A stretch of 64,000 nt of DNA, from positions 33,695 to 97,694 of the forward strand of contig JBATDG010000087.1 of NCBI GenBank assembly GCA_049663345.1, in the 5' to 3' direction. This DNA is from Bacteroidota bacterium. Its GTDB lineage: Bacteria > Bacteroidota > Ignavibacteria > SZUA-365. Shown piece after piece: positions 17,215-50,577 of this stretch. Position 1 is the stretch's first letter, and each line of letters begins with the position of its first letter. The position numbers were made by a program, and so were the translations under genes. The notes beneath the pieces were generated by a model. The model had not been told where the DNA came from. It did no database searches and saw only the letters and a list, made by a program, of their open reading frames with translations.

Positions 17215-17242
17215 CAGTATCGTTCATTTTGAGAATGTGATC

Positions 17243-17268: not shown

Positions 17269-17307
17269 GACAAGAATATACGCAACGAGGTTTATTTCCT
17301 TGGAGTG

Positions 17308-20438: not shown

Positions 20439-20499
20439 ATCATCTAGACACATAAGATGATATTCGGTTGCCGGAAATTGCGATTATCTGCGCAGCAGC

Positions 20500-22470: not shown

Positions 22471-22678
22471 GGCATACTCCGGAATTCGGGGGGACAGTGA
22501 AGGCGGGACCCGTGTGCCTGAATGGGCTGAACAAAGGATAACGAGGTCCGACAAGGTAGACAACTGGAAATCTATCCAATTTATCTCTATGCAGCAAGAG
22601 TCGGACAGCGTTTTCACCCCTATATTCTCATGAATAATTTGTAACGTAAATGTTGCAATGTTATCCGAAAGGTTGTTT

Positions 22679-25573: not shown

Positions 25574-26989
25574 TTGGGAAACCTGTCCGACGCAGGTGAC
25601 ATCCTGATCGTTGACGATGAGGAAATGATGGGCATCGTGCTGTCCGGCGTATTCGAGGATGCCGGGTTTTCAGTGCGAACCGCCACTAATGGCGAGGCGG
25701 CAATCAAGCTTATCGGTGAACGTTTGCCCGATGCGATGCTGCTTGACATCATCATGCCGGGACTGAGCGGCATGGAAGTGCTCAAACGGATCAAATCCGT
25801 TGATGAGAGCATCCCTGTCATTCTTATGACTGCTATGGCTGGCGTCAGCGGGGCTGTTGAAGCGATGCGCGCCGGTGCCTACGATTACATCGCCAAACCA
25901 TTCCACAATGAGGAACTCCTGCGCATCGTATCCGCCGCCGTTCGGCAGCGTCTCTCGCGCAGCGATTTTATTGCCACCCGGGACGGAGATAACGAACAGC
26001 GTGACCCCATACTCTTTAATATGGGCACCAGTGAGGTTATCATGGAATTGTCCGCGCGCACGCGCCGCGTGGCGAAAAGCAATTTCGATGTTCTTATCAC
26101 AGGGGAAACCGGGACCGGGAAAGAACTCATCGCGCGTTCGATACACGAGATGAGCAGCAGGGGCAATAAGCCCTTCATCGCTATCGACACGGGTGCGATA
26201 CCGGAAGCCCTTCTCGAAAGTGATCTGTTTGGTCATGAGGAGGGCGCGTTTACTGATGCGCGGAATCAGAAGAAGGGGAAGTTTGAACTAGCGCAAGGCG
26301 GCACGATTTTCCTCGATGAAGTCCCCAACATGTCCTGGCAATCTCAGGCCAAACTGCTGCGTGCTCTGCAGGATCGGGCGATTTCCCGTGTCGGTGGAAG
26401 CAAGTCTATTAGCATCGATGTCCGCGTTATCGCGGCGAGCAATTCTGATTTTCAGGATATGATTGATGAAAAGCGATTTCGCGCCGATCTGTTTTACCGC
26501 CTGCGCGAATTCTCTATCCACGTTCCTGCACTGCGCGAGCGCAAAGCCGACATCCCGTTCCTTGTTGACAAATTCGTGCGCATGACAAATCAGGAATTGG
26601 GGAAGAATATCGGGGGCTGCAGCGCCTCAGCGATGGACGCCTTGATGATGTATGATTGGCCCGGAAATGTACGGCAGCTTCGTTCGACAGTTCGCAGCGC
26701 AGTGCTTCAGGCAACCCACATCATTGAGATCGAGCAGCTCGAATTCATGGAGATGTCTGCTGTTGACGGACAAGTACGCTCCGGCGGCGAACTCCCCGAA
26801 CTCGAGAACGGCATGCCGCTGAAGGAGCATGTGAAAAAACATATCGCTCAGATCGAACGGCAAATAATCTATGAAACACTGAAGTCAACCAAGTGGAATA
26901 AGGCAAAGACGGCGCGCGTGCTGCAGATTGCCTACAATACGCTGTTGACGAAGATCGGCGAATACGATCTTCAGAATCCTCACGGTTGA
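25574..26989 (+). CDS. Sigma-54-interaction-domain response regulator (NtrC/Fis family: REC-AAA+-HTH). The sigma-54 contact loop reads GAFTDA
   Basis: REC domain with DIIMPG, Walker A GETGTGKE, ESDLFGHEEGAFTDA and a C-terminal Fis-type HTH. Confidence 0.85.
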   Translation: MGNLSDAGDILIVDDEEMMGIVLSGVFEDAGFSVRTATNGEAAIKLIGERLPDAMLLDIIMPGLSGMEVLKRIKSVDESIPVILMTAMAGVSGAVEAMRAGAYDYIAKPFHNEELLRIVSAAVRQRLSRSDFIATRDGDNEQRDPILFNMGTSEVIMELSARTRRVAKSNFDVLITGETGTGKELIARSIHEMSSRGNKPFIAIDTGAIPEALLESDLFGHEEGAFTDARNQKKGKFELAQGGTIFLDEVPNMSWQSQAKLLRALQDRAISRVGGSKSISIDVRVIAASNSDFQDMIDEKRFRADLFYRLREFSIHVPALRERKADIPFLVDKFVRMTNQELGKNIGGCSASAMDALMMYDWPGNVRQLRSTVRSAVLQATHIIEIEQLEFMEMSAVDGQVRSGGELPELENGMPLKEHVKKHIAQIERQIIYETLKSTKWNKAKTARVLQIAYNTLLTKIGEYDLQNPHG

Positions 26990-27047: not shown

Positions 27048-30000
27048 ATGATGACTTCGGACGCCCCGCTACATATTTTTCTGATCGAGGATGATCCCGA
27101 ACAGGTTGCGTTTCTGAAAGTGACCTTGCGTACGGAGCAGAATTCAGCGTATTCGTTGACCCATGCCGCGAGTCTGGGTGAGGCCAAAGTACTGCTGGCC
27201 GAATTGAAGCCGGATGTGATTCTTCTTGATCTGCATCTTCCCGACAGTGAGGGGCTTAACACTCCGCGCGAAATTCTCGCCCTCGCTCCGCAAATCCCAA
27301 TCATTATCTATAGCGGCAACACCGATGTAGAGCTCGCGATCGAGGCAGTGCGGCTCGGAGCGCAGGACTACCTCCTCAAGGGCGAGGCGCGCGAACCTCT
27401 GCTGTCCCGCGCCATGCGATATGCGATTGAGCGGAAACACACCGCTCTCGAACTCGAGCAGGCGCACACAATTCTCGAAGAACGCAATGCAGCTTTGGAG
27501 ATTGCGCGCAGCGAACTCCGGTCGGAACGAGACATGTTCGTTTCCGGACCGACAATCCTGTTCAGACGCGATTTCACGACGGGCTTCCCGATCACCTTCG
27601 TTTCGCGCAATGTCTCACAATTCGGTTTTCTGCAGCGCGATCTCATGGTGGAAGGATTCCGATATGATTCGCTGGTATTCAGCGATGATCGCGAGGGGTT
27701 TCGCAATCTGCTCACCGTGCGCCTTAGCGAGGGTATCGAGAATGTCGAACAGGAATACCGGATTCTTGACGCGAGAGGCGAAATCGTCTGGCTTCACGAA
27801 GTGGCGCGGATACAGCGCGGCGCAGACGGAGAGCCCATCGCTCAGCTCGCCTATGTTGTCGACATAACCCGGCGGCGTCAGGCTGAAAAAAGCCTTTCTT
27901 CCACACGAAGGCGCTTCGATACTATCCTCGGCAGTATCAATGAGATTGTCTACGAAATCGATATTCACGGCCGGCTTCTGTATATCAGTCCCGCCATCGA
28001 ACGCATTCTCGGCTGGGAAGCAGATGGATTAATCGGTCAGCCATTTGCGGAACTAGTCGTTGAGGAGCAGCGCGAGGGCTGGGAAGAAAGCTTCGCACGT
28101 ATCGTCAGCGGAACGGTCCTTGCCTGCGAATTCCCATTGAACGCGGCCGACGGTCACGAACATGTGTTCCAGATCTCCGCACGCCGGCAAACCGATGGGA
28201 CTCAGGTCCGCTCTATTGCCGGGGTGCTCACCGATATAACCGACCGCAGGGAAATGGAACATGCCATCCGGAATGTTCGCACTCAGACGCAGCAATATCT
28301 TGACATCGCCGAGGTGGTGTTCCTTTCGCTTGATCTGAGCGGGAGCATCACGCTCATCAATAAAAAGGGTTGTCAGGTTCTGGGCTATAATGAACATGAG
28401 CTCGTGGGGCGGGACTGGTTTGACCTCTGTATTCCTGAGCATATACGGGAGGAGACTCGTGCATTTTTCTTCCGCATCGTCGGTGGGGGTGAGACCCAAA
28501 CAGATGTACACGAAAATGACGTGCGTACCAAATCGGGTGAAGAGCGGCTCCTTCGCTGGCACAATTCGTTGATGCACGATAGCCGCGGCGCTGTGATCGG
28601 GATGCTGAGCAGCGGTGAGGATATTACTGATCGGCGCAGAATCGAACTCGAGGCCAAAGGGTCGCAGGAACTGATCGACCTTGCACTTTGGGGGGCGGAT
28701 CTCGGTGCGTGGGAATGGGATATTCACAACGATAGCATCACACTGAATTCTCGTGCCCTGTCGATGTTGGGCTACGAAGCAGGGCAGCTCCCATTGTTCA
28801 CTCAGCTGCGGGAAGAAACTCTTCCGATAGAAGATGTGAGCCGATTGCAGGAAATGATGAATGCTCATCTCGAAGGGCGTTCACCCTTCTATCAGGCTGA
28901 GACCTGGATAATTTGCCGGAGTGGTGAATGGAAGTGGGTCCTCGAACGCGGGAAAGTCGTGGAATATGATACTGCGGGAGCGCCTCTGAGGGTTGCAGGC
29001 ACCTACCTTGATCTGACCGTGAGAAAATATGCTGAGATCGCACTTGAGGATAGTGAAAAGAAATTCCGTCTTCTTGCGGAAAACTCATCCGATATCATCT
29101 GGACGGTAAATGCCGATTTCGAGCTGACCTTCGTCAGCCCGTCAATCGAATTCGTACTTGGCTTTACGCCTGAAGAAATGATGGATACGGACTTCTTTGA
29201 CGCCATCGATGAAGACTTTTTGAGGGATAAAAAAGAGCAATTTATCACAGCCCTACGGAACTCTGCCGCCCGCCCTCCGCACGATCGTACGCTTCGCATA
29301 GAAGCCCCGTTCGTGAAAAAAGATGGAAGCATCCTTTGGGTCGAGGTCGTTGCAACTCCGATCCTCGACCATGGCGGAAATCTCGTGAGCGTTCACGGCA
29401 ATTCCCGCGACATTCATTATCGCAGAATCGCACAGCAGGGACTTGCCGACAGCGAAGGGAAGTACCGTCTGCTTGTGCAGAACCAGACAGATCTTGTCAT
29501 CAAGATGGATCTTGACGGAAAGTTCCTCTTCGTAAGCCCTTCGTACTGCAGGATGTTTGGCAAGACGGAAAACGAACTCCTGCTGCAGCCGTTTTTCCCG
29601 ATGGTGCATGAGGATGACCGTGCGGCCGCACTCGACGCTATGAAGAAATTGTTCGAGGCGCCTTTCACCAGCTATGTCGAACAGCGTGCCCTGACCCAGG
29701 ATGGCTGGCGATGGCTCGGCTGGCAGGACACTGCTGTCCTGAACGACAATGATGAAGTGGTTGCGATCATTGGAGTAGGGCGCGACGTGACCGAGCGCCG
29801 TATGGCAGAACGAGCGCTTATTGATAGCGAGAAGCGCCTCCGTACAGTAATCTCCAACCTTCCAGTCATCATGTTCACGCTGAATAAGGATGGGAAATTC
29901 ACCATGTCGGAGGGTATGGGACTCGAATCCCTCGGACTGACATCAGGGCAGGTCGTGGGTCTTTCGGCATTTGATGTTTATGCTAATAATCCCGACGTAG

Positions 30001-32021
30001 TCGCGGGTCTCCGCCGTGCCATCGGAGGTGAGGCTTTTGTCGCCGCGGTGGAAGTCGAAGGGAAGTCGTTCGAGACATGGTATTCGCCGGTGTTCGGCGA
30101 CGGCGGGGAGGTCGAACACGTCATTGGTGTCGCTGTCGACATCACAAGCCGGAAGAAGACTGAACAGGAGCTCGCCCAGTACCGCGATCATCTTGAAGAA
30201 TTGGTCGAGGCGCGGACACTGGAACTCGAGCGTGCTAATGAGCGGCTGAAGCGATTCCGCTTTGCACTTGACAGCGCGGCCGACAACATCTACATCATCG
30301 ATCCGGAAACGATGAAGTATGTGGATCTCAACGAAAGCGCCGTCGAGGCTCTTGGATATGAACGTGAAGAATTGCTGACCATGGGTCCGTACGACGTGCA
30401 GGTGCATTCCGAAAAACAGGAGCATATGGAAACCTATGCTAAGGTGCGCGGGGGCACTCTCGAGGTCGGGATTTTTGAGACAGAGCATATGAAGAAAGAC
30501 GGCAGCCGCTTCCCTGTCGAGGTGTTTGTCCGCGCCTTCGAATCCGGTGATGCCCGGCTCCTCATCGCAACTGCTCGCGATGTCTCTCGCCGCCGCGCCG
30601 CTGAGCTGGCGCTGAAGGAATCCGAGGCGAAGTATCGCAACGTGTTGGAAAACGCGAATGAAGCCATCATCGTGCTTCAGGATAATCTGCTGCGTTTCTA
30701 CAATTACAAAGTCCTAGAGCTGACAGGTCTCTCTGATGCCGCTCTCAAGGATCTCCCCATCTTCGAATTTGTGCATCCTGATGATCACGCGCTACTTCGC
30801 CGCCAATATCAGGAGAGAGTCCGCGGCGGACTTCTGCCCGAGAGCTACGACGTAAGGATGTACGACAGCAACGGCACGATCAAGTGGATGGAAGTGCGCG
30901 ATGTGCTCATCACGTGGGACGGCAAGCCCGCGACACTGAATTTCTTCAACGACATCACAGCCAGGAAATATGCGGAGGATTACATCCGCTTCCAGGCTTC
31001 ACTGCTGAGCATCGTTCGCAACTCGGTTGTGGCACTTGACCAATCGGGCCGCGTTACCTATTGGAATTCCTTCGCGGAGACACTTTTCGGGTGGACCGCA
31101 CAGGAAGTCCAGGGCAGGAAGCTGAATGAATTCCCTACCTTCGGTCCCGAGTTCGAAACCGAGCTGCTTCCCTCAGTGAGAGCTCGCGGTCATTGGGAAG
31201 GCGAAGGCGAACTGCAGCGCAGCGATGGCACAATGCTCTCCGTGTATTCGATGTGGACCGTCATTATTCAGGACGATCAGCTGCGCGGCTACGTGGGAAT
31301 CGGTATGGATCTGTCGGAGAGGAAAAAGCTCGAGAAGGAATTGCTGCAATCCCAGAAGCTCGCCTCGCTCGGCATTCTATCCGAAGGCATTGCGCATGAA
31401 TTGAGGAATCCGCTAGGTTATGCCAGTTCCGCCGCCCAGCTCCTGATATCAAAAAAGGATCTGACCGAGGAGCAGCGGAAGAAATACAGCACAGTGATCC
31501 ACACAGGCGTTGACCGGGCGAATAAAATCGTCGAAAACCTGCTTCTCATCGGCAAGCCCAAGGGGCAGCTGATGAAAAAATCGCTCAATCTGATTGACAC
31601 TGTTCGTGAAGCGCTTTCCCTGATCTCCTCGCATCACAACGCCGCTGGCGTTCACATCGAGAAGCAATTCGAAGCAAAGGAACTCCTCGTGCTGGGAAAC
31701 AGGGAGATTCTCATACAACTCTTTTACAACCTGTTCACCAACGCTCTCGATGCCATGGCTGGCAGCGGAACGCTGCGGATTTGCGGTGAGCAGAAGAAAG
31801 GGCATGTCTATATCCGCGTCAGCGATACTGGTCCCGGTGTTCCCGAGCATATCGTAGAAAACATTTTCGATCCCTTCTTTACGACCTCCAAAACCGACAA
31901 AGGCGTCGGGCTTGGCCTCACGCTCTGCTATTTCATCATGGACGACCATGAAGGCCGTATCGAGCTGGATACCACAGCAGAAACAGGTGCAGCGTTCATT
32001 TTAATCTTCCCGGCCGTGTGA
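27048..32021 (+). CDS. Giant hybrid sensor histidine kinase (1657 aa): N-terminal receiver, at least 8 PAS/PAC repeats, HisKA and HATPase_c
   Basis: REC (LLDLHLPD), repeated PAS-like blocks, H-box LASLGILSEGIAHELRNPL, and N/G boxes near the C-terminus. Confidence 0.85.
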   Translation: MMTSDAPLHIFLIEDDPEQVAFLKVTLRTEQNSAYSLTHAASLGEAKVLLAELKPDVILLDLHLPDSEGLNTPREILALAPQIPIIIYSGNTDVELAIEAVRLGAQDYLLKGEAREPLLSRAMRYAIERKHTALELEQAHTILEERNAALEIARSELRSERDMFVSGPTILFRRDFTTGFPITFVSRNVSQFGFLQRDLMVEGFRYDSLVFSDDREGFRNLLTVRLSEGIENVEQEYRILDARGEIVWLHEVARIQRGADGEPIAQLAYVVDITRRRQAEKSLSSTRRRFDTILGSINEIVYEIDIHGRLLYISPAIERILGWEADGLIGQPFAELVVEEQREGWEESFARIVSGTVLACEFPLNAADGHEHVFQISARRQTDGTQVRSIAGVLTDITDRREMEHAIRNVRTQTQQYLDIAEVVFLSLDLSGSITLINKKGCQVLGYNEHELVGRDWFDLCIPEHIREETRAFFFRIVGGGETQTDVHENDVRTKSGEERLLRWHNSLMHDSRGAVIGMLSSGEDITDRRRIELEAKGSQELIDLALWGADLGAWEWDIHNDSITLNSRALSMLGYEAGQLPLFTQLREETLPIEDVSRLQEMMNAHLEGRSPFYQAETWIICRSGEWKWVLERGKVVEYDTAGAPLRVAGTYLDLTVRKYAEIALEDSEKKFRLLAENSSDIIWTVNADFELTFVSPSIEFVLGFTPEEMMDTDFFDAIDEDFLRDKKEQFITALRNSAARPPHDRTLRIEAPFVKKDGSILWVEVVATPILDHGGNLVSVHGNSRDIHYRRIAQQGLADSEGKYRLLVQNQTDLVIKMDLDGKFLFVSPSYCRMFGKTENELLLQPFFPMVHEDDRAAALDAMKKLFEAPFTSYVEQRALTQDGWRWLGWQDTAVLNDNDEVVAIIGVGRDVTERRMAERALIDSEKRLRTVISNLPVIMFTLNKDGKFTMSEGMGLESLGLTSGQVVGLSAFDVYANNPDVVAGLRRAIGGEAFVAAVEVEGKSFETWYSPVFGDGGEVEHVIGVAVDITSRKKTEQELAQYRDHLEELVEARTLELERANERLKRFRFALDSAADNIYIIDPETMKYVDLNESAVEALGYEREELLTMGPYDVQVHSEKQEHMETYAKVRGGTLEVGIFETEHMKKDGSRFPVEVFVRAFESGDARLLIATARDVSRRRAAELALKESEAKYRNVLENANEAIIVLQDNLLRFYNYKVLELTGLSDAALKDLPIFEFVHPDDHALLRRQYQERVRGGLLPESYDVRMYDSNGTIKWMEVRDVLITWDGKPATLNFFNDITARKYAEDYIRFQASLLSIVRNSVVALDQSGRVTYWNSFAETLFGWTAQEVQGRKLNEFPTFGPEFETELLPSVRARGHWEGEGELQRSDGTMLSVYSMWTVIIQDDQLRGYVGIGMDLSERKKLEKELLQSQKLASLGILSEGIAHELRNPLGYASSAAQLLISKKDLTEEQRKKYSTVIHTGVDRANKIVENLLLIGKPKGQLMKKSLNLIDTVREALSLISSHHNAAGVHIEKQFEAKELLVLGNREILIQLFYNLFTNALDAMAGSGTLRICGEQKKGHVYIRVSDTGPGVPEHIVENIFDPFFTTSKTDKGVGLGLTLCYFIMDDHEGRIELDTTAETGAAFILIFPAV

Positions 32022-32113: not shown

Positions 32114-32175
32114 CCGTATGCATCGGTAGCAGAGAGACGACCGGGCTAGTCCGAAAGCACTATTCAATTCATTCC

Positions 32176-32195
32176 CTATGCAGATCCCTGCATAG
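32176..32195. promoter_or_regulatory. Perfect 8-bp inverted repeat CTATGCAG-ATCC-CTGCATAG inside a motif (CAATTCATTCCCTATGCAG) shared with the paralogous site at 34788..34835. It is a candidate operator
   Basis: Read directly. The paralogous intergenic region carries an expanded 16-bp palindrome built on the same TGCAG core. Confidence 0.5.
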
Positions 32196-32403
32196 TTTTT
32201 CAGTGCGCTGCATACTGCGAAGATTAACATTTTGTAAGATTCGTGCAGCATCATCATATGGATAACTGCTCCGATTTCCTTTCAGTTTTCAACCGTTGCT
32301 TTAGTGTTCGGCTCCTATCCTGTTGATTGACAACAGATCCGCATCACGGCAAGCAGGTCTAAATCCCCTATTTCAGGGGCAATTCCCCCCACATTGTGAA
32401 TTA

Positions 32404-32419
32404 TGGCACGATTTGTGAA
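32404..32419 (+). promoter_or_regulatory. Sigma-54-like -24/-12 promoter candidate (TGGCACGATTTGTGAA). The -24 box is perfect and the -12 box is degenerate
   Basis: TGGCACG sits about 55 nt upstream of the start codon at 32476. The paralogous position at 35014 has a full consensus. Confidence 0.4.
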
Positions 32420-32475
32420 CAAATAAGGGAGAATCGAAGACTAAGCTCATGATGTTTTATGAGGAAAGTGCTGTG

Positions 32476-34263
32476 ATGAAAAATCAGATACCGATTGGTA
32501 AAACAATTATCCTTGCAATTACACTATGCATGTTCGGATTCGGGACGCAGGCGAGTGCAGCAACACGGACTTGGTCCGCTTTTGCGGCTACCACTTCATG
32601 GGGGACTGCCTCAAATTGGGTTGAGAATGCAGTCCCAGCTTCTGGTGATGACGTTGTTTTCCTTAATTCCGCTACTGTGGTACTCGAGAGTGCGACTCAA
32701 ATCGGTACATTGACACTTTCCGCTGGTGCGGACGTCGGCTTCACCGCGAACGGCCTGCTAACCATCACAGGAACGCTTACCTTGGGTGCGGGATCAGAGA
32801 TCAATCTTGGGAATGGAACAGCCTCCTACCCGCTGCAATTAAATGGAAATATCCTTTTTGCTGATGGCAACAGTGCATCGGATCCTACTAGAATCTACTC
32901 TTCAGTCATCCCTTGGAAGCTTATCAAAATCAGCAGTGCTTCTCACATCTCCATGGGAGGAATTGCGAACGCTTACTTTGGTGATCATACGACGACGTTG
33001 ATCCAGCTAAATGCACAGCCATTCACTTCGGATGTTCGATTTGAGGGTAATCTTCAATTCACTACGACAAACAACATTCTGCTTGGGGCGAATAACTTAT
33101 ATCTGGGCAAGTCTTGCGAACTCACAGTTACTGCGGTATTCCCTAGTGGTGATGGATTTATTGCGACTGACGGTACCGCAGCAACTCCGCAAGGGACTGT
33201 GCGCCGTCAGTTTGATGCTGTAGCCGATTCATTTTATTTCCCTGTTGGCCCTGTCGGTGGACGAATGTCGCCGATCCGCATCAAAATTATTCCACCATCA
33301 ACTAGTGCTATCTTTACATCCGCTTCACCCTGGCCGTATATCTCTGTCCGCTGTTTGTTAAATTCGAGCGGATCGACAGGCGGACATCCGATGAATTTTG
33401 ATAATTCAAGAATCTGGGTGTATTGGCCTGTGAAGGGCGTCGGGATTTCGGAGCCTGCTTATCTTTCAGGCCGAATGTACCTCCATACGAATTATCGTAG
33501 CGGAGATCCTAAAATCTATTCTGCTCGTTGGACTCCGAACTACGAAGACCTCGGTTCGCTTGGAATATGGGATTTGACTGGCTCCTTACCCGGAACGACA
33601 ACAGGGAATACTCGGGAGGTGCCCTTTTCTGGATGCCCGGGTTTCGGAGACTTTAATATTGGAACAGGAATTGCCGGCGATCCTCTTCCCGTCGAACTCA
33701 CTTCCTTCAGCGCCCGCTACATTGATCGTTCGGTGCGGTTGAACTGGAACACAGCGACGGAGCTGAATAACTACGGCTTCTCGATCGAGCGTTCGCAGGA
33801 CAATGAGACATGGGAAGAAGTCGGCTTTGTGGAAGGCTACGGCACTTCGCTTAGTCCTAAGAGCTACACTCATACGGACATGCTGACGGATGACCTCGCG
33901 AAGGTTCCGCAGCTGGCCTATCGTCTGCGTCAGATCGATCGTGACGGCACCACGGATTACTCGAATATCGTGTTTGTGAAGACGGGCACATTGCCCGCGG
34001 GCGTAGAAATGTACGCTGCATATCCGAATCCCTTCAACCCCTCCACGACGCTGAGCTTTACGATTCAGGACCCTGCGACTGTGAATCTGAAGGTGTACAA
34101 TACCTTCGGTCAGGAAGTCGCAACCCTGCTGAGCAGCAGTGCGATGGATGCGGGCCTGCACACGGTCTCCTTTAATGGAGAGCAGCTCCCGAGCGGCGTG
34201 TACATGGCAGTGCTGGAGGCGAACGGTACGCTGCAGCAGCAAAAGTTTGTGCTCAACAAGTGA
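32476..34263 (+). CDS. Adhesin-like secreted protein: signal peptide, beta-helix-like N-terminal repeats, conserved pre-CTD module and a T9SS C-terminal sorting domain
   Basis: Signal peptide MKNQIPIGKTIILAITLCMFGFGTQASA. N-terminal TRTWSAFAATTSWGTASNWVENAVPASGDDVVF (autotransporter-passenger-like repeat). LNWNTATELNNYGFSIERS module. C-terminal YPNPFNPSTTLSFTI...GVYMAVL tail. Confidence 0.75.
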   Translation: MKNQIPIGKTIILAITLCMFGFGTQASAATRTWSAFAATTSWGTASNWVENAVPASGDDVVFLNSATVVLESATQIGTLTLSAGADVGFTANGLLTITGTLTLGAGSEINLGNGTASYPLQLNGNILFADGNSASDPTRIYSSVIPWKLIKISSASHISMGGIANAYFGDHTTTLIQLNAQPFTSDVRFEGNLQFTTTNNILLGANNLYLGKSCELTVTAVFPSGDGFIATDGTAATPQGTVRRQFDAVADSFYFPVGPVGGRMSPIRIKIIPPSTSAIFTSASPWPYISVRCLLNSSGSTGGHPMNFDNSRIWVYWPVKGVGISEPAYLSGRMYLHTNYRSGDPKIYSARWTPNYEDLGSLGIWDLTGSLPGTTTGNTREVPFSGCPGFGDFNIGTGIAGDPLPVELTSFSARYIDRSVRLNWNTATELNNYGFSIERSQDNETWEEVGFVEGYGTSLSPKSYTHTDMLTDDLAKVPQLAYRLRQIDRDGTTDYSNIVFVKTGTLPAGVEMYAAYPNPFNPSTTLSFTIQDPATVNLKVYNTFGQEVATLLSSSAMDAGLHTVSFNGEQLPSGVYMAVLEANGTLQQQKFVLNK

Positions 34264-34302
34264 GAGTGGAAAGAGAGAGAGCACATTAGCCGAAGACGTG
34301 AA

Positions 34303-34326
34303 GGCGGGGTTTTGAGAGGCCCCGCC
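34303..34326 (+). ncRNA. Conserved stem-loop in the cargo 3' region (GGCGGGG-TTTTGAGAGG-CCCCGCC) with no downstream U-tract
   Basis: The paralogous hairpin at 36927..36960 keeps the loop (TTGTGAGAGG) while both stem arms change in a compensatory way. Confidence 0.5.
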
Positions 34327-34376
34327 TCTCACGCATTCTCTGAAGAATTTGGAAGGAAACAGGTTGGAAACAGTGA

Positions 34377-34691
34377 ATGCAAATGGGAATCGATCAGCGG
34401 AGCAGAGTTATAATGGAGATACCGTTTTCGTTTTCGCAGTATGCGTATCCGTTGAACCCAAGTGCGACCGTGAGCTTTACCCTGGAAGAACAACAGGAAG
34501 TCTCCTTGAGGATTTATAACACGTTCGGACAGGTAGTGCACACGCTCTACGAAAACGTTCAGATGAAAGCCGGATACCATGAATTGAGGCTCTACGGCGA
34601 AACCTTCCCCTCAGGTGGATGCTACGCCAGGCTTCATACAAAAAATGGAGTTCAGCAGCGCACATTGGTGCTGAGCACCGACAACAACTGA
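34377..34691 (+). CDS. CTD-only minigene: a free-standing T9SS C-terminal sorting domain (104 aa) with no signal peptide and no cargo domain
   Basis: The whole ORF matches the Por-tail (YAYPLNPSATVSFTL...GGCYARL). It is about 80% identical to the second minigene at 37051..37365, and both ORFs are intact. Alternative start M13 (34413). Confidence 0.55.
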   Translation: MQMGIDQRSRVIMEIPFSFSQYAYPLNPSATVSFTLEEQQEVSLRIYNTFGQVVHTLYENVQMKAGYHELRLYGETFPSGGCYARLHTKNGVQQRTLVLSTDNN

Positions 34692-34736: not shown

Positions 34737-34766
34737 AAAAAAGTCCGCCGCAAGCGGGCTTTTTTC
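34737..34766. terminator. Bidirectional rho-independent terminator
   Basis: A-run, stem AGUCCGC/GCGGGCU with loop CGCAA, then a T-run. Confidence 0.6.
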
Positions 34767-34801
34767 TTGTTACAGGGTGGAGGTATGCAATTCATTCCCT
34801 A

Positions 34802-34835
34802 TGCAGTGGATTGCATATCTATGCAATCCACTGCA
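34802..34835. promoter_or_regulatory. Perfect 16-bp inverted repeat TGCAGTGGATTGCATA-TC-TATGCAATCCACTGCA, preceded by the shared CAATTCATTCCCTATGCAG motif. It is a candidate operator
   Basis: Read directly. Confidence 0.5.
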
Positions 34836-35013
34836 TGCTATTTTCATTAAGATCACATATAAATAATCACGGGTGCGATTTAGGAAAAAGATGCTATATC
34901 TTAAATTACCAGTTGGAGGAAGCTGGCTATCTCGTTGTTTAGCTTTATCTAGCCGCTCATCTCATGAGGGCGTCAATGAGGACAAAGCATATCTTCAATA
35001 GAACGGATACTTT

Positions 35014-35029
35014 TGGCACGTTTTATGCA
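35014..35029 (+). promoter_or_regulatory. Sigma-54 -24/-12 promoter (TGGCACGTTTTATGCA), with the GG and GC dinucleotides at consensus spacing
   Basis: Matches TGGCAC-N5-TTGCA at every position except one. It lies 60 nt upstream of the start at 35090. Confidence 0.6.
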
Positions 35030-35089: not shown

Positions 35090-36891
35090 ATGCAGAAATA
35101 TAGACTGTTTGTGAAAATCGGCCTGCTGGCGGCAATCCTTTTCTATATGGGACTCGGATCTGACGCCTTCGCTGTCACCCGGACCTGGGTAGGTGTCGGA
35201 CTTGGCAATTGGAACACTGCTCTCAACTGGAGGCCTAGCAGCGTCTCGGGTATTACCGGAAACACCGGTGATGCCGTGATTATTAACACCGTCTCGACGA
35301 TTACCATGAATGCTTCTTCAAACATCACGATCGCATCATTGCCCATTTCTGCGTCGAGTGTTGGACTCATTTCGGATAAAAAGATAACCACAGGGTCATT
35401 GACGGTTTCAGGTTCACTTGTTCTCAGCTATGTGAGTGCTGGAGGTGCGGCGAACAATATTTTTGATATCACCGGTGCAATGAGCCTTACTGCTCCGGTA
35501 TTATCTCTCGCTCGGGTTCCTGGGTGAGTACGGATGTCAAGATAAATATCGGCAGGAGAGGTACAGGCACAATAACCATGGCGGCGATTGCGAATAATTA
35601 CATCGCCTACCATGTCAACACTAGTATTGCTCGCAAACCTGTCCTGCTTTCCGATGTGAGATTTGAAGGAGACATTAATCTGCCTTCAGGAATTTCTCTT
35701 GGCACTGATGACCTGTATCTAGGGATCAACGCAGACGTGCTTACTCCGAATGCTGAAATCGGTGACCCAGGGAACTGCATCGAAGTTTCCGGCGGGAATA
35801 CAACTCCCTCCGGTGTTGTACGCAAACAGTATACTGCCGTAAATGACGCGTTCACCTTTAATGTGAGTCCCGGTACCGGCCGGTTGTCGCCCATCACGAT
35901 CAAGGTCATCAGCCCGACGCCATCCTCCTCATTTACAAGTGCTGTTCCCTGGCCGCATATCTTTGTCCGCGTCGTTCTCAATAATGGTGGAAACGGCGGA
36001 CACCCCGCGAATCAGCAGTCGCAAAAAGTCGGGGTTCACTGGCCGGTTAAAGGCTACGGAATCAACACTCCGGTATATTTCTCCGGTGTAATGACTTCCC
36101 ATAACAACTACAGGAACGGATCAGCTAACGATCTGTATTCAGCCCGCTACGCTCCAAGCTACGAAGATAACCTTTTTAATAGCGGTTGGGACCTCACCGG
36201 AACACAGCAAGTCACGACTACGAGCGGTGACCTTCGAAGCGTCCCGTTTAACGGCTTCCCCGGCTTTGGTGATTTCACCATCGGTTTTGGAGATCCCTTT
36301 GGCGGCGACCCTGTACCCGTCGAGCTCACTTCCTTCAGCGCACGCTATATCGATGGTTCGGTTCGCTTGAACTGGAATACCGCGACCGAGCTTAATAACT
36401 TCGGCTTCGCCATCGAGCGTTCGCAGGATTCGAAGAACTGGGAAGAAGTCGGCTTCGTGCAGGGCTACGGAACTTCCAGCAGCCCGAAGAGCTATTCGCA
36501 TACCGATGTGCTTACGGACGACCTTGCACGCACTCCGCAGCTCGCTTACCGTCTGCGTCAGATGGATCGCGACGGCACAATTGATTACTCGAACATCGTT
36601 TTTGTCAAAACGGGCGAACTGCCCGCCGGCGTCGAACTTTACGCTGCCTATCCGAATCCCTTCAACCCCGCAACTACGATCAGCTTTACTGTCAAGGAGT
36701 CTGCGAACGTAAACCTGAAGGTGTACAACACCTTCGGTCAGGTAGTCGCGACCCTGCTCAGCAACAGCTCAATGGATGCCGGCCTGCACACGATGTCGTT
36801 CAACGGAAATGACCTTCCGAGCGGCGTGTACATGGCAGTGCTTGAGGCGAGCGGTGAACTGCAGCAGCAGAAGCTTGTGCTCAACAAGTGA
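35090..36891 (+). pseudogene. Paralogue of cargo gene 32476..34263. It is split by a frameshift near 35520 into ORFs 35090..35527 (signal peptide plus N-terminus) and 35524..36891 (beta-helix, pre-CTD module, T9SS CTD)
   Basis: The two ORFs jointly align along the full length of the 604-aa paralogue (145+455 aa). The frame changes from phase 2 to phase 1. This could be a genuine pseudogene, a sequencing error or programmed slippage. Confidence 0.55.
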
Positions 36892-36926
36892 GAGTGGAAG
36901 AGGTGAGTGAGCACAATTAATCGATA

Positions 36927-36960
36927 CGCGAGGCGGAGTTGTGAGAGGCTCCGCCTCGCG
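36927..36960 (+). ncRNA. Conserved stem-loop (CGCGAGGCGGAG-TTGTGAGAGG-CTCCGCCTCGCG), paralogue of 34303..34326
   Basis: Same loop sequence with covarying stems. Confidence 0.5.
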
Positions 36961-37050
36961 TAAGATTTAAAGTGAAAGACGGACTGGGGAATTAGGAATT
37001 ACGAATTAAGAATTACGAATTACGAACTTTGAAGAAGCAGGAAAGAGTTA

Positions 37051-37365
37051 ATGGAGCTGGGAATGGAATCGCGGAACAGAGAAAAGATGGATATTCCGTT
37101 TACATTTTCGCAGTATGCGTATCCGTTGAACCCGAGCGCAACTCTGAGTTTCACCCTTGACGAAGCACAGGAAGTGTCGCTGAAAATTTACAACATGTTC
37201 GGACAGGTGGTGCGTACGCTCTACGAAAGGGTTCAGATGAAAGCCGGGTACCATGAATTGAGGCTCTATGGAGAGACCTTTCCGGCCGGAGGTTGTTACG
37301 CGCGGCTCCACACAACAAAGGGAGTTCAGCAGCGCACGTTGATGCTGAGCACCGAGAATTCCTGA
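37051..37365 (+). CDS. CTD-only minigene 2 (104 aa, free-standing T9SS C-terminal sorting domain)
   Basis: AGGAAAG ribosome-binding site 7 nt upstream of the ATG. The sequence FSQYAYPLNPSATLSFTL...GGCYARL is about 80% identical to 34377..34691. Confidence 0.55.
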   Translation: MELGMESRNREKMDIPFTFSQYAYPLNPSATLSFTLDEAQEVSLKIYNMFGQVVRTLYERVQMKAGYHELRLYGETFPAGGCYARLHTTKGVQQRTLMLSTENS

Positions 37366-37412
37366 CCCTTGATGGTCGGCCGGGTGAGTTGACGAAGAGA
37401 GAGATTGAAGTG

Positions 37413-37456
37413 AAAAAAAGTCCGCCGTACGCAGTTTGCCGTAGGCGGACTTTTTT
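37413..37456. terminator. Bidirectional rho-independent terminator
   Basis: A7-GTCCGCC...GGCGGAC-T6. Confidence 0.7.
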
Positions 37457-37529
37457 CTTACGGTTGCTGATGTGAATTCGGAGTTCCCTATATTATGTAC
37501 GGAGTACCTAACGGAAGCAGCGCCGCAAC

Positions 37530-38912
37530 ATGCCGGAAAAAGAGAAAATTGATGTCCTGATTGTCGATGATGAGGAGCAGATCTGTTTCGTGCTCACTCA
37601 TCTGCTTAAAGTGCATGGCTATGGCTCACGCATAGCGCCCCGCGGAGACCGTGCACTGCGGATGATTGAGGATCAGCGCCCGGATCTCATTATCATGGAT
37701 ATTCGGATGCCGGGAATGAGCGGCTTTGATGTGCTCGAACGTATCCGGGAGTTTGATACAGATGTTCCTGTAATCCTGATGACAGCCCTGCCGGGGGTGC
37801 GTGATGCAGTCCACGCAATGAAGGCGACGGCTTTCGACTACATTGCAAAACCATTCGACAATAACCACATGGTCGGAACAGTTGAACGCGCACTTAGTGT
37901 TGCAGCAGACCTGCGCCGGAATGAAAAATATACAGACCGGTCGCCGGAGCCGCTTCACCCGCTGTTCGCGGCTATGGGCAGCAGCCTGGCCGTACGAAGA
38001 CTTGCGCGTGAAAGCGGACGAATCGCGAATTCTGCTAATCCGGTAATGATCATTGGAGAAATCGGAACAGGCAAGCGCCACCTCGGAAAAATTCTTCATA
38101 CACTCAGTGAACGCCAGGGATCCTTTCTCAACATCGATTGCACAGGCGCTAGCGAATTGATCCTGCGGCAGGAACTGTTCGGTTCCGCTATCGGAACCGG
38201 GCACCGAGGGAAGCTTGAACTGGCGGATCAGGGCACGCTTCTTCTTGATGAGGTTTCAGAGATTCCGTGGACGTTCCAGGAAATCCTCTCCGAAGCCCTG
38301 CATCAAAAGGAATTCTCCGCACCAGCCAGCGAAGAGATGATCCCGATTGCATGCCGACTTCTTTTCGCTTCGAGTATTGCACCGGATAGAGGTATCGATG
38401 GCAACTTCCTGACGCCTCGTTTCCGTGAGCTTTTCGGAGAAGCGATCATCGAAGTGCCGCCGCTCCGGGAACGGCATGAGGACATCCCCATCCTCGCTCT
38501 GGAATTTCTCCAGGATGCGAACAGGGAGCTGGGGCGAAATATGGTAGTGATCTCGGATGCCGCACTCGAAAAGTTGGTTTCCTATCATTGGCCTGGAAAT
38601 GTGCATCAGCTTAAATCCACGATTCGGCGAGCCACTCTGACCTCCAAGGATACTATCGGGATCGATGACATCGATCTCCCGATTTCTCACCACGATGCAA
38701 CGATGGATGACGGTATTGCTGCAAGCGTCGCTGTCGCCGGCGCTCCGCTGAAGGAACAAGTGAAGCGGCATATTGCCGAGGTCGAAAGGCAGCTCGTCTT
38801 TGAAACACTGCGGCAAACTGGCTGGAATAAAGCCCAGGCCTCAAGACTTCTGGGAGTTACGTATAAAACATTATTGAAAAAAGTCAGCGATTATGGCCTC
38901 GAACGACAATAA
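37530..38912 (+). CDS. Sigma-54-interaction-domain response regulator homologue (REC-AAA+-HTH) whose GAFTGA loop is deleted or degenerate
   Basis: REC (DLIIMDIRMPG), Walker A GEIGTGKR and a Fis-type HTH. The segment equivalent to ESELFGHEKGAFTGA reads QELFGSAIGTGHRG. Confidence 0.8.
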   Translation: MPEKEKIDVLIVDDEEQICFVLTHLLKVHGYGSRIAPRGDRALRMIEDQRPDLIIMDIRMPGMSGFDVLERIREFDTDVPVILMTALPGVRDAVHAMKATAFDYIAKPFDNNHMVGTVERALSVAADLRRNEKYTDRSPEPLHPLFAAMGSSLAVRRLARESGRIANSANPVMIIGEIGTGKRHLGKILHTLSERQGSFLNIDCTGASELILRQELFGSAIGTGHRGKLELADQGTLLLDEVSEIPWTFQEILSEALHQKEFSAPASEEMIPIACRLLFASSIAPDRGIDGNFLTPRFRELFGEAIIEVPPLRERHEDIPILALEFLQDANRELGRNMVVISDAALEKLVSYHWPGNVHQLKSTIRRATLTSKDTIGIDDIDLPISHHDATMDDGIAASVAVAGAPLKEQVKRHIAEVERQLVFETLRQTGWNKAQASRLLGVTYKTLLKKVSDYGLERQ

Positions 38913-38948: not shown

Positions 38949-40016
38949 GTGAAAAAGAAAATTCCACAAATTCCCGTGCAGCTCGAACAGCTGCTTCAAA
39001 TCCTTCCTGACGCCGCGTACATTCTCGATGGCGCGGGAATTATTCTCTATGCAAATCCAGCCGTCCACAGGCATACCGGATGGGAATCAGCCCAGCTGGT
39101 CGGTCAGTGCGTCGCTGATTCGCTGCTTTTTGCGCTCCCGTTTCGTTCGTCACTCATGGGCAGCCTCCTCGAGCAAGGAGTGTGGGAGGGTGAATCCGAG
39201 CGGATCCGCCCCGATGGCAGTCTCAACACAGTCCAGGCGCTTTGGCAGGGTCTCCCGGATCCGGATGGGGCCGCAAGATTCATCGGCATAGATCGGGACA
39301 TCTCGGAACTCCGCACACAGGAGCTTGAACTACAGCAGTGCCGCAAACTCGCAAAGATCGGCATCCTCTCTGAAGGTATCGCACACGAATTGCGGAATCC
39401 GCTGAGCTACGCGCTTTCCGCCGCACAGCTTCTCAACGAAGATACGCTGCCGGAGGAAGTGCGCCAGAAATGTGTTCAAACCATCACAATGGGTGTAAAA
39501 AAAGCTGGACTGATTGTCGAAAACATGCTTTCGCTCGGTAGGCCACAAACACAGATTACACGGCAGCGAGTCAACATCGTGCTCGTTCTCGCAGAGGCTA
39601 TTGAAGCGGCCTCATCGCATGCGAACTATTCCGCTGTCCGTATTTTTCAGCGTCTTCCCGGCGAAACATTATTCGTCTCTGGTAATCACGATATGCTTGT
39701 TCAGGTTTTTCATAACGTCATCACCAATGCCCTGAATGAAATGCCGAACGGCGGCAGCATTACGGTGAGCGGGGAAAATAGCACTGATAGTATTCGGATA
39801 TCTGTGTCTGATACGGGCCCCGGCATACCTGAGGAGCATATCGACAAGCTCTTCGATCCGTTTTATTCAGCGTCTTCGTCCGGTACAGGCACCGGTCTGG
39901 GACTGACGCTCAGCTACTTTATCATGAAAGAGCATGCGGGAAGTATCGAAGTGGAAGCGCACCCGGGTTCGGGTGCAACATTTGTACTGACTTTCCCCGG
40001 GTTCAACGAATCGTAA
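38949..40016 (+). CDS. Cytoplasmic PAS sensor histidine kinase
   Basis: A PAS-like N-terminus, H-box LAKIGILSEGIAHELRNPL and HATPase_c motifs (DTGPGIPEEHIDKLFDPFY..GTGLGL). Confidence 0.85.
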   Translation: MKKKIPQIPVQLEQLLQILPDAAYILDGAGIILYANPAVHRHTGWESAQLVGQCVADSLLFALPFRSSLMGSLLEQGVWEGESERIRPDGSLNTVQALWQGLPDPDGAARFIGIDRDISELRTQELELQQCRKLAKIGILSEGIAHELRNPLSYALSAAQLLNEDTLPEEVRQKCVQTITMGVKKAGLIVENMLSLGRPQTQITRQRVNIVLVLAEAIEAASSHANYSAVRIFQRLPGETLFVSGNHDMLVQVFHNVITNALNEMPNGGSITVSGENSTDSIRISVSDTGPGIPEEHIDKLFDPFYSASSSGTGTGLGLTLSYFIMKEHAGSIEVEAHPGSGATFVLTFPGFNES

Positions 40017-49373: not shown

Positions 49374-49443
49374 ATTGATTGACGTGAATCGTAAAATATA
49401 CGCATTCGTCAGGTGGGGAGAAAGGTTGTGTTTTATTGCACAC

Positions 49444-49660
49444 GGAGGAGGTGGAAAGGTTAAAAGGTTAAAAAGTTAAAAGGTTAAAAAGTTAAAAGGT
49501 TAAAAGGTTAAAAGGTCAAAGGGTGAAGAGGGAAATAAGGGGAATGAGGGAAATAAGGGAAATGAGGGAAATAAGGGGAATGAGGGGAAGAGGGGGAAGA
49601 TGGGGAAGAGGAGGAAGAGGAGGGAGAGGAGAAGAGGGGAAGGGGAGGTAAAAGGATAGT
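49444..49660. repeat. A ~215-bp homopurine tract with essentially no cytosine (pyrimidine-rich on the coding strand) inside the partner-switching operon. It is built from nested microsatellites
   Basis: One C in about 215 nt on the + strand. Three sub-arrays: GGTTAAAA(A) x ~8, GGGAAATAAGGGGAATGAG x 3 and GGAAGAGG-like x ~8. Flanked by the RsbW-like gene end (49660) and the PP2C gene start (49373). Confidence 0.9.
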
Positions 49661-50112: not shown

Positions 50113-50152
50113 GGGTGATTGCAGTATCGGTACTGAAATACCTACGGCTTGT

Positions 50153-50518: not shown

Positions 50519-50577
50519 ACCTGACTCCTCAGTTCCGGATTACTTCGCAGTTCAAATTAATCGATTCTTGGTGACAA

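What the first reader, a model, noticed from the sequence alone, without database searches (positions are those of the whole stretch)
34377..34691. A free-standing T9SS C-terminal-domain minigene sits downstream of cargo gene 1
A 104-aa ORF encodes essentially nothing but a Por-type CTD (..YAYPLNPSATVSFTL...GGCYARLHTKNGVQQRTLVLS). It has no signal peptide and no cargo domain. It lies 114 nt after the stop of a cargo gene that already has its own CTD, and it is followed by its own terminator. T9SS CTDs are normally covalent tags on Sec-exported proteins, so a cytoplasmic CTD-only protein is unexpected. It could be a decoy or regulator of the sortase PorU or of the T9SS, a reservoir for gene conversion or tail swapping, or a duplicated 3' remnant.
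Basis: seen in the sequence. Interest (0 to 1): 0.7.

Follow-up and report, generated by a model that had tools for sequence, protein, structure and literature searches.

The report
Leaderless T9SS-tail paralog beside cargo
The small ORF is real and belongs to a conserved, previously undescribed family of roughly 92-residue proteins that copy the type IX secretion "tail" domain but lack an export signal; each sits just downstream of a secreted cargo gene under sigma-54 control, and what it does is still unproven.

Summary
ORF 34377..34691 exists, has a paralog at 37051..37365, has no signal peptide, and is collinear with the neighbouring cargo's T9SS C-terminal domain (hhalign 99%, E 8e-18). 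The conserved start is probably ATG 34413, giving 92 aa.

It is not a remnant. It has 68 homolog clusters, all 92-153 aa and free-standing. dN/dS between the two copies is 0.10. The minis are more conserved than the cargo tails.

It is not a recombination cassette. The longest exact DNA match to a cargo tail is 10 nt or less, and a mini is no closer to its own cargo's tail than to others.

In about 35 instances from about 15 uncultured Bacteroidota/Ignavibacteria-like MAGs, the layout is the same: enhancer-like repeat, sigma-54 promoter, about 600-aa beta-helix cargo, a covarying GC hairpin, the mini, then an intrinsic terminator. This unit occurs 1-3 times, between a response regulator with a giant PAS kinase and a second pair whose regulator lacks the GAFTGA loop.

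Several genomes have lost or degraded a cargo gene but kept the mini under the same promoter.

My best inference, at about 35%, is a cytoplasmic feedback or connector subunit of the flanking two-component/sigma-54 circuit. The main rival is a cargo-specific cytoplasmic escort. This is a new variant of a known domain and of moderate to high interest.

The parts
25574..26989 (+). RR1: response regulator and sigma-54 enhancer-binding protein with a GAFTDA loop. It is the presumed activator of the cargo-mini operons.
   Evidence: Pfam Response_reg, Sigma54_activat (E 2e-66) and HTH_8; the motif was read. Its role as activator is inferred.
27048..32021 (+). Giant soluble hybrid kinase (REC, many PAS domains, HisKA, HATPase) that flanks the array upstream.
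   Evidence: ORF. Orthologs sit upstream of cargo-mini pairs in L001, L008, L010, L015, L019, L021 and L023.
32165..32215 (+). Enhancer-like repeat 1 (CAATTCATTCCCTATGCA... with TGCA half-sites).
   Evidence: The 18-mer occurs only twice in the 64-kb window, against 0.05 expected. The same motif lies 190-240 nt upstream of sigma-54-like promoters in other loci.
32404..32419 (+). Sigma-54-like promoter of cargo 1 (TGGCACGATTTGTGAA). The -12 element is imperfect.
   Evidence: 10 of 12 consensus positions.
32449..34263 (+). Cargo 1: signal peptide, beta-helix, beta-sandwich, Fn3/Ig-like domain and a T9SS type A tail.
   Evidence: PF18962 E 8e-8 and TIGR04183 E 1e-9. AF2 model with pLDDT 86. A database cluster 100% identical (P0217, 595 aa) suggests the start is 9 codons further in, at 32476.
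34296..34335 (+). Intercistronic GC-rich hairpin 1, with no T-run after it.
   Evidence: -26.6 kcal/mol. In 15 homologous intergenic regions, 11 of the 15 base pairs show compensatory double changes.
34413..34691 (+). Mini 1: leaderless tail-derived protein of 92 aa, 10.5 kDa. The longest ORF starts at 34377.
34737..34768 (+). Intrinsic terminator of operon 1 (A-run, stem, T-run).
   Evidence: An equivalent terminator follows the mini in most of the pairs examined; a few loci show only a hairpin with a weak or no T-run.
34786..34840 (+). Enhancer-like repeat 2, which includes a 17-bp inverted repeat.
35014..35029 (+). Sigma-54 promoter of cargo 2 (TGGCACGTTTTATGCA).
   Evidence: 11 of 12 positions, with GG-N10-GC spacing. 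Equivalent sites occur in 11-12 of 17 cargo upstream regions.
35090..36891 (+). Cargo 2, a paralog of cargo 1. It is split by a frameshift near 35490.
36924..36963 (+). Intercistronic hairpin 2. It carries a compensatory G-C to A-T change relative to hairpin 1.
37087..37365 (+). Mini 2, a paralog of mini 1. The longest ORF starts at 37051.
   Evidence: dN 0.089, dS 0.91.
37410..37462 (+). Intrinsic terminator of operon 2.
37530..38912 (+). RR2: NtrC-family response regulator in which the GAFTGA loop is deleted.
   Evidence: Pfam. The loop is absent in this protein and in 11 distinct orthologs.
38949..40016 (+). HK2: soluble kinase with PAS, HisKA and HATPase domains.
   Evidence: Synteny is conserved.

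Best explanation
SHOWN. The ORF encodes a real protein that is selected for. It is a roughly 92-aa beta-sandwich that descends from the type A T9SS C-terminal domain. It has lost everything upstream of that domain, including the Sec signal peptide.

It forms a narrow, conserved family. Its members sit directly downstream of one family of about 600-aa T9SS beta-helix cargo genes, on the same strand.

INFERRED: how it is expressed. The unit is an enhancer-like repeat, a sigma-54 promoter, the cargo gene, a covarying GC hairpin that usually has no T-run, the mini, then a full intrinsic terminator. No promoter is recognisable between cargo and mini. I therefore take the mini to be transcribed by read-through from the cargo's sigma-54 promoter. 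The hairpin probably sets the cargo-to-mini ratio.

INFERRED: function, my best guess. The mini stays in the cytoplasm and acts as a small regulatory subunit of the flanking circuit. That circuit is RR1 plus the giant PAS kinase upstream, and the GAFTGA-less RR2 plus the PAS kinase HK2 downstream.

Because it is made together with the cargo, the mini would report operon output back to the soluble kinases or regulators. That would make it a feedback or 'connector' protein. It would be the cytoplasmic counterpart of what the PorA tail domain does to the sensor PorY in the periplasm of Porphyromonas.
For: A real gene:
- dN/dS between mini 1 and mini 2 is 0.097, with dS 0.91.
- 68 homolog clusters, all free-standing and 92-153 aa. 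More distant members are also short.
- A conserved Shine-Dalgarno-like motif and ATG.
- Mean mini-mini identity is 66%, against 59% for the cargo tails. The mini is also more conserved than RR2 and HK2.

A tail derivative: (99%, E 8e-18). The AF2 model is a beta-sandwich with pLDDT 79.6.

Cytoplasmic: no hydrophobic N-terminus in any member, and stop codons close the frame upstream.

Operon layout:
- Sigma-54-like promoters lie 70-118 nt upstream of 11-12 of 17 cargo genes. No consistent equivalent appears in 27 cargo-to-mini spacers; L007 is the one exception, scoring 9 of 12 with correct spacing.
- The enhancer-like motif lies 190-240 nt further upstream.
- The hairpin covaries.

Link to the regulators:
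- 16 of 17 loci with enough flank carry the giant kinase or RR2-HK2 next to the pairs; L023 adds a further case, L024 shows neither in its 18 kb.
- In L021 a mini directly follows the giant kinase with no cargo between them.
- In L018 a mini sits directly behind the enhancer and sigma-54 promoter with no cargo.
- In L008 the cargo is deleted down to 41 codons, but the promoter, hairpin and mini remain.
- In L020 the cargo has decayed while the mini is 90% identical in DNA to that of L016, with dN/dS 0.14.

So the mini can outlive its neighbouring cargo but not its regulatory setting.

Precedent for a tail domain acting as a kinase ligand: PorA and PorY (PMC12152298).
Against: - No interaction has been tested, and nothing shows binding to any kinase or regulator.
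- One mini per cargo is kept even in arrays of three. Paralog lineages are old and maintained separately across species. That pattern fits cognate cargo specificity at least as well as a general regulator.
- Co-transcription is inferred. In L012 and L013 the intercistronic hairpin is followed by a T-run, so it may terminate efficiently there.
- The fold searches return only generic Ig/Fn3-like sandwiches, so structure gives no functional hint.
- The PorA precedent acts in the periplasm and on a membrane sensor.
Confidence: 0.35

Rival explanations
1. Cargo-dedicated cytoplasmic escort. Each mini binds its own cargo before Sec export, for example by pairing with the cargo's tail or capping the beta-helix. 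This would keep the cargo export-competent or protect it from degradation.
For: - Strict adjacency and roughly one-to-one numbers. Three minis and three full-length cargos are seen in the 5.2-Mb contig of GCA_027493955.
- Pairs duplicate as a unit: DNA identity is 80.5% between the minis and 83% between the cargo 3' ends.
- Paralog lineages are old and kept apart.
- The location fits.
Against: - Minis persist where the adjacent cargo is deleted, absent or decayed (L008b, L018a, L021, L020).
- A mini is no more similar to its cognate tail than to other tails.
- To my knowledge no Sec/T9SS cargo is known to need a private cytosolic chaperone.
- A hairpin ahead of the mini suggests it is made in lower amounts than the cargo.
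Confidence: 0.2
2. A co-regulated cytoplasmic effector with a job unrelated to secretion. For example, a small ligand-, metal- or redox-binding sandwich that uses the conserved His, Cys and Arg residues. It would simply ride in the sigma-54 regulon.
For: - Mini-specific invariant or nearly invariant residues include H55, C82, R85 and E41. H68 is also invariant but is shared with the cargo tails (H571).
- Mrp/ApbC and NifU genes are always downstream.
- Minis survive loss of the cargo.
Against: - The near-universal position right behind one particular cargo family would then be a coincidence.
- No metal-binding motif is recognisable.
- I had no model coordinates, so I could not test whether these residues cluster in space.
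Confidence: 0.15
3. Exported after all, by an unrecognised route. It would act outside the cytoplasm as a decoy or competitor for tail-binding T9SS parts (PorV, PorU, the translocon), or as a partner of the surface cargo.
For: It keeps the full seven-strand tail, including the glycine of the beta3-beta4 loop (G66). That loop is needed for secretion in P. gingivalis (PMC11285876).
Against: - No signal peptide, lipobox or twin-arginine motif in any of the 37 members.
- The frame is closed upstream.
- The lysines of the C-terminal motif are replaced: cargo ...QQQKFVLNK against mini ...QQRTLVLS.
- T9SS takes its substrates from the periplasm (established knowledge).
Confidence: 0.07
4. Decaying duplicate of the cargo 3' end, with no function.
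For: It looks like a copy of the last 82 codons of the neighbouring gene.
Against: dN/dS is 0.04-0.38 in the pairs inspected. The reading frame is intact in all ~35 copies examined across ~15 MAGs, and there are 68 clusters. A start codon and Shine-Dalgarno-like motif are conserved.
Confidence: 0.02
5. Silent cassette for gene conversion or tail swapping, like pilS cassettes or orphan cdiA-CT modules.
For: A truncated, promoter-less copy next to the expressed gene.
Against: - The longest exact DNA match to a cargo tail is 10 nt or less.
- Minis are about 66% identical to one another but only about 36% to any cargo tail, cognate or not.
- It has its own ribosome-binding site and start codon.
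Confidence: 0.02

Closest known systems
T9SS type A C-terminal sorting domain (Pfam PF18962 Por_Secre_tail, TIGR04183)
   Same: Homologous over the whole domain. Same length, a beta-sandwich, and it keeps the PxNP, G-x-Y and final-strand motifs.
   Different: It is free-standing with no signal peptide and no passenger. It scores below the curated thresholds. It has its own invariant residues (YPLNPSAT, HTLY, GGCYARL). The C-terminal lysines are lost. It is presumably cytoplasmic.
[quoted passage not shown]
   Same: A T9SS tail domain used as a regulatory signal to a histidine kinase. This is the only described case of a tail domain having a second, signalling role.
   Different: PorA has a signal peptide and an N-terminal FimH-like domain, is itself secreted, and meets PorY in the periplasm. 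The circuit there uses an ECF sigma factor, not sigma-54. No sequence relationship beyond the shared domain was tested.
Small co-transcribed feedback regulators of sigma-54 or secretion regulons (PspA-PspF, HrpV-HrpS, FlgM, ExsE) and two-component 'connector' proteins such as PmrD (from general knowledge)
   Same: A small cytoplasmic protein encoded inside the regulon it would control, next to enhancer-binding proteins and kinases.
   Different: There is no homology to any of these. This is an analogy of logic only and is untested.
Silent or orphan 3' cassettes (pilS, orphan cdiA-CT/cdiI)
   Same: A truncated copy of a gene's 3' end lying just downstream of the full gene.
   Different: There is no DNA homology that could support recombination. 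It has its own translation signals and is under purifying selection as a protein.

Membership tests
T9SS type A C-terminal sorting domain (PF18962 / TIGR04183) | Scores above the curated threshold of the family model | tested here: not met
   PF18962 scores 16.9 and 15.5 bits against a cut-off of 27. TIGR04183 scores 17.2 and 17.0 against 23.
T9SS type A C-terminal sorting domain (PF18962 / TIGR04183) | Homology to bona fide tail domains over the full domain | tested here: met
   hhalign gives 99% and E 8.4e-18 over 81 ungapped columns. The profile hits 17,359 proteins, and the listed matches lie mostly at C-termini.
T9SS type A C-terminal sorting domain (PF18962 / TIGR04183) | Located at the C-terminus of a protein that carries an N-terminal Sec signal peptide and a passenger | tested here: not met
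   Free-standing protein of 92-111 aa with no hydrophobic N-terminus.
T9SS type A C-terminal sorting domain (PF18962 / TIGR04183) | Seven-strand Ig-like beta-sandwich | tested here: inconclusive
T9SS type A C-terminal sorting domain (PF18962 / TIGR04183) | Directs secretion and is cleaved by PorU | not testable with these tools
   Needs fractionation or secretion assays.
PorA-like regulatory tail domain (ligand of a sensor kinase) | Binds a histidine kinase and changes signalling | not testable with these tools
   Only gene neighbourhood supports it: kinases or regulators flank the pairs in 16 of 17 loci; L023 also, L024 not within 18 kb.
PorA-like regulatory tail domain (ligand of a sensor kinase) | Is itself a Sec-exported T9SS cargo with an N-terminal domain | tested here: not met
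   No signal peptide and no extra domain.
Silent recombination cassette (pilS or orphan CT type) | DNA homology with the expressed gene sufficient for recombination, and mosaic relationships | tested here: not met
   Longest exact match is 10 nt or less. Cognate and non-cognate identities are equal.
Pseudogene or remnant | Relaxed selection and disrupted orthologs | tested here: not met
   dN/dS is 0.04-0.38 in the pairs inspected, and the frame is intact in all ~35 copies examined.

The most novel reading that the evidence does not exclude
The T9SS sorting-domain fold has been recruited as a cytoplasmic signalling module. In this reading a leaderless replica of the cargo's tail is made together with the cargo. 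It is read by soluble PAS kinases or by a GAFTGA-less enhancer-binding protein, and so tunes sigma-54 transcription of the cargo genes. That would be an intracellular counterpart of PorA-PorY signalling and the first link between T9SS cargo and sigma-54 control.
Probability: 0.3. Interest if true: 0.75.

Novelty: new variant of a known kind. Interest (0 to 1): 0.6.

Why it matters
T9SS tail domains are treated as disposable export tags on Sec-exported proteins. This family is a tail domain that has become an independent, leaderless protein under strong purifying selection. It has been kept for a long time next to one cargo family and two signalling systems.

If it is a regulator, a secretion tag can evolve into an intracellular signal. 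It would also give a handle on how cargo expression is controlled outside the Porphyromonas and Flavobacterium model organisms.

If it is a chaperone, it would be the first cargo-specific cytosolic factor for T9SS.

Either way, annotation pipelines currently call it 'hypothetical protein' with no domain. The family is confined to uncultured lineages, which limits immediate testability.

Tried and rejected
- Sequence searches of PDB with the mini profile and with the cargo found nothing.
- Foldseek of the cargo model gave only adhesin-like repeats and weak PorU matches.
- PADLOC gave no defence-system match, and Rfam gave only sub-threshold terminator look-alikes.
- I looked for a separate sigma-54 promoter in front of the minis. 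The conserved GGAAACAGTGAATGCA motif has GG..GC spacing of 11 in most copies and 10 in a few, so I rejected it as a regular sigma-54 promoter.
- I considered arguing that residues beyond the last strand would disable the tail. I dropped this, because PMC11285876 reports that C-terminal extension is tolerated.
- Three of the four literature searches were aimed at leaderless or stand-alone tails or a T9SS/sigma-54 link and found nothing relevant; the fourth retrieved the PorA papers.
- I recalled PorA as being 'tail only'. The papers show it has an N-terminal FimH-like domain.
- A first script for identity matrices timed out and was redone.
- Evolutionary-rate covariation with candidate partners was considered but not run. 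There are too few taxa and the signal would be confounded by the species tree.

Full report
WHAT IS THERE

The window contains the ORF 34377..34691 (+, 104 aa), as reported. A TGA sits immediately 5' of its first ATG. The upstream cargo gene (32449..34263) ends 113 nt before it. An A-run/GC-stem/T-run terminator follows at 34737..34768.

A paralog lies at 37051..37365. It sits behind a second cargo gene (35090..36891) and is 78% identical in protein and 80.5% in DNA.

IS IT A T9SS TAIL?

The curated models are matched only below their thresholds: PF18962 at 16.9 bits against 27, and TIGR04183 at 17.2 against 23. Homology is nevertheless secure.
- tblastn of the minis against neighbouring cargo tails gives E 1e-14 to 1e-20.
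- hhalign of the mini family against the cargo family gives 99% probability and E 8.4e-18. Mini residues 20-100 align without gaps to cargo residues 523-603.
- An HMM of the family hits 17,359 of 1.84 billion representatives. Among the 150 listed, nearly all single-stretch matches end 1-3 residues from the C-terminus of a longer protein.

IS IT A GENE?

Yes, on four lines of evidence.
- The large protein collection holds 68 homolog clusters at 54-100% identity. All are 92-123 aa except one 153-aa call and one 62-aa fragment, and none is part of a larger protein.
- More distant members (P0072, P0074, P0078) are also short and leaderless.
- dN/dS between the two copies in the window is 0.097 (dN 0.089, dS 0.91). 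The 25 least-diverged pairs listed give 0.04-0.38, apart from one artefactual pair caused by an in-frame stop in an N-terminal extension.
- Mean pairwise identity among the minis is 66%, higher than among the tails of their own cargos at 59%. It is also higher than for the neighbouring regulator and kinase.

START CODON AND LOCATION

The N-terminal 12 residues of the 104-aa ORF are not reliably coding. In L007 and L008b the same stretch contains stop codons. In other genomes a conserved DNA motif there is read in a different frame.

A conserved GCGGAGCA motif lies 4-10 nt before the ATG at 34413 (37087 in copy 2). This gives MEIPF... and 92 aa, 10.5 kDa, pI 5.8. A more distant subgroup starts about 15 residues further upstream, at a conserved 'MF' codon pair.

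No member has a hydrophobic N-terminus. The maximum Kyte-Doolittle score over 8 residues is 1.5 or less, against 2.5-3.4 (over 10 residues) for 11 of the 12 cargo signal peptides examined; the exception has a long, probably mis-called N-terminal extension. There is no lipobox and no twin-arginine signal. I therefore infer a cytoplasmic protein.

CONTEXT

I examined 14 loci from GTDB species representatives and further loci from contig look-ups. All come from uncultured 'Bacteroidota' or 'Ignavibacteria' MAGs.

Every mini with enough upstream sequence lies 66-238 nt behind, and on the same strand as, a gene ending in a T9SS tail. In nearly all cases that gene is a full-length homolog of the about 600-aa cargo. 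The exceptions are listed below under 'Natural experiments'.

Pairs occur one to three times in tandem (L019 and L024 have three).

The flanks are conserved. Upstream lies a 1657-aa soluble hybrid PAS kinase, preceded in the window by the enhancer-binding regulator RR1. Downstream lie RR2, HK2, Mrp/ApbC, NifU and NAD kinase.

In one 5.2-Mb contig the two flanks are at separate loci, each with its own pair or pairs.

The cargo model has pLDDT 86. It shows a signal peptide, a beta-helix (about residues 39-230), a beta-sandwich (240-404), an Fn3/Ig-like domain (416-511) and the tail (520-602). This is adhesin-like, and no enzyme fold was recognised.

EXPRESSION SIGNALS

Cargo 2 is preceded by TGGCACGTTTTATGCA at 35014, a near-consensus sigma-54 promoter with GG-N10-GC spacing. 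Cargo 1 is preceded by the weaker TGGCACGATTTGTGAA at 32404.

Equivalent sites scoring at least 9 of 12, with both core dinucleotides, lie 70-118 nt upstream of 11-12 of 17 cargo genes in other genomes. Among the 27 cargo-to-mini spacers only L007 has a comparable site (9 of 12, correct spacing), so there is no conserved one.

About 190-240 nt further upstream is a conserved repeat, CAATTCATTCCCTATGCA..., rich in TGCA half-sites. The 18-mer occurs only twice in the window, once before each cargo gene, against 0.05 expected. I interpret it as the enhancer for an NtrC-type activator. This is an inference.

Between each cargo stop and its mini there is a strong GC hairpin. In most genomes it lacks a T-run. 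In an alignment of 15 such spacers, 11 of its 15 base pairs show compensatory double changes.

After the mini comes a canonical terminator in most pairs. The simplest reading is a two-gene operon, with the hairpin acting as attenuator or 3'-end stabiliser so that less mini than cargo is made. In L012 and L013 the hairpin does carry a T-run, so an independent mini promoter cannot be excluded there.

NATURAL EXPERIMENTS

- L008: the second cargo is deleted down to its last 41 codons. The enhancer, a sigma-54 promoter (TGGCGCGCTTTTTGCT), the hairpin and an intact mini remain.
- L018: enhancer and promoter are followed directly by a mini, with no cargo.
- L021: a mini directly follows the giant kinase.
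- L020 compared with L016: the mini and its leader are about 90% identical in DNA, with dN/dS 0.14. The cargo falls from 75% identity to unalignable, and its tail motifs are destroyed.

I saw no case of the reverse, a full-length cargo without a mini. The mini can therefore outlive its neighbouring cargo. In three of these four cases (L008, L020, L021) it still lies next to the kinases or regulators. L018 has no kinase or regulator match within its 6.6 kb, but its upstream mini keeps the enhancer and sigma-54 promoter.

- Remnant: refuted by selection and conservation.
- Recombination reservoir: the longest exact DNA match between a mini and a cargo tail is 10 nt or less. A mini is 36.9% identical to its cognate tail and 35.4% to non-cognate tails. 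The minis are about 66% identical to one another but only about 36% to any cargo tail.
- PorU decoy: PorU acts at the cell surface, and no export route for the mini is visible.

WHAT IT MOST LIKELY DOES

This part is inference. Two readings fit.

(a) A regulatory subunit of the flanking signalling circuit.
- It is co-expressed with the cargo.
- It is small and cytoplasmic, and more conserved than the kinases.
- It is retained with the promoter or the kinase when the cargo is lost.
- Both kinases are soluble PAS proteins, which need a cytoplasmic input.
- RR2 lacks the GAFTGA loop in all 11 distinct orthologs examined. It therefore cannot itself activate sigma-54 and probably modulates RR1.
- There is one precedent for a tail domain acting as a kinase ligand: the PorA tail binds PorY and activates PorXY-SigP. 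That happens in the periplasm (PMC12152298).

(b) A cargo-specific cytoplasmic escort.
- Numbers are one to one.
- Pairs duplicate as units.
- Paralog lineages are kept separate across species.

I put (a) at about 0.35 and (b) at about 0.20. A co-regulated but unrelated cytoplasmic function gets about 0.15. Export by an unknown route gets about 0.07. The remnant and cassette ideas get about 0.02 each.

COMPARISON WITH WHAT IS KNOWN

It is homologous to type A T9SS tails. It fails two defining features of the family as used in annotation: the threshold score, and a C-terminal position on a Sec-exported protein.

The glycine of the beta3-beta4 loop, which is needed for secretion in P. gingivalis, is kept (G66). 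The lysines of the C-terminal motif are replaced (PMC11285876).

The literature searches aimed at leaderless, free-standing tail proteins or a T9SS/sigma-54 link found nothing relevant. Source databases call the family 'hypothetical protein' with no Pfam domain.

VERDICT

This is a new variant of a known domain family, in a conserved two-gene module with a clear regulatory setting. Its function is unresolved. Interest is 0.6.

Noticed in passing
window 35480-35530 (cargo 2, 35090..36891): Cargo 2 is split by a one-base frameshift near 35490. The N-terminal 145 aa are in one frame and the remaining 455 aa in another, yet both parts align collinearly with intact orthologs. This is either a sequencing or assembly error, or a young pseudogene whose mini is still intact.
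   Followed up: partly
window 37530..38912 (RR2) and orthologs in L004-L020: This NtrC-family response regulator has lost the GAFTGA loop that contacts sigma-54 (ELFGSAIGTG--HRGKLE). The loss is shared by all 11 distinct orthologs examined. The upstream paralog RR1 (25574..26989) has GAFTDA. This suggests an activator paired with a non-activating partner.
   Followed up: partly
window 34264..34286 and 36892..36914; alignment A4: A purine-rich sequence, TGAGAGTGGAGAGAGAGAGCACA, starts at the cargo stop codon and is conserved across about 9 species. It is otherwise absent from the window. Its function is unknown.
   Followed up: partly
window 34355..34385; equivalents in L008, L009, L010, L011: The DNA motif GGTTGGAAACAGTGAATGCAA lies between the hairpin and the mini's ribosome-binding site. 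It is conserved regardless of reading frame. It resembles a sigma-54 promoter, but the GG..GC spacing is 11 in most copies. It is unexplained and may be a leader RNA element.
   Followed up: partly
window 36989..37026: A tandem heptamer, GAATTAC x 5.4, is inserted between hairpin 2 and mini 2. It is absent from the copy 1 spacer.
   Followed up: no
L008 5400..6315; L018 1..623; L021 1987..2521; L020 4569..6312: These are natural cases in which the cargo gene is deleted, absent or decayed but the mini is retained. In L008 and L018 the enhancer-like repeat and sigma-54 promoter are also kept.
   Followed up: yes
window 47613..52803: A cluster resembling a partner-switching module: two GAF-SpoIIE (PP2C) phosphatases (47613..49373 and 50578..52803, minus strand) and an RsbW-like HATPase_c_2 kinase (49660..50112).
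   Followed up: no
window 15274..22617: Other probable surface or secreted proteins lie upstream: an S15 X-Pro dipeptidyl peptidase ending in a sub-threshold FlgD_ig tail-like domain, a TonB-dependent receptor, and a PKD-domain protein.
   Followed up: no
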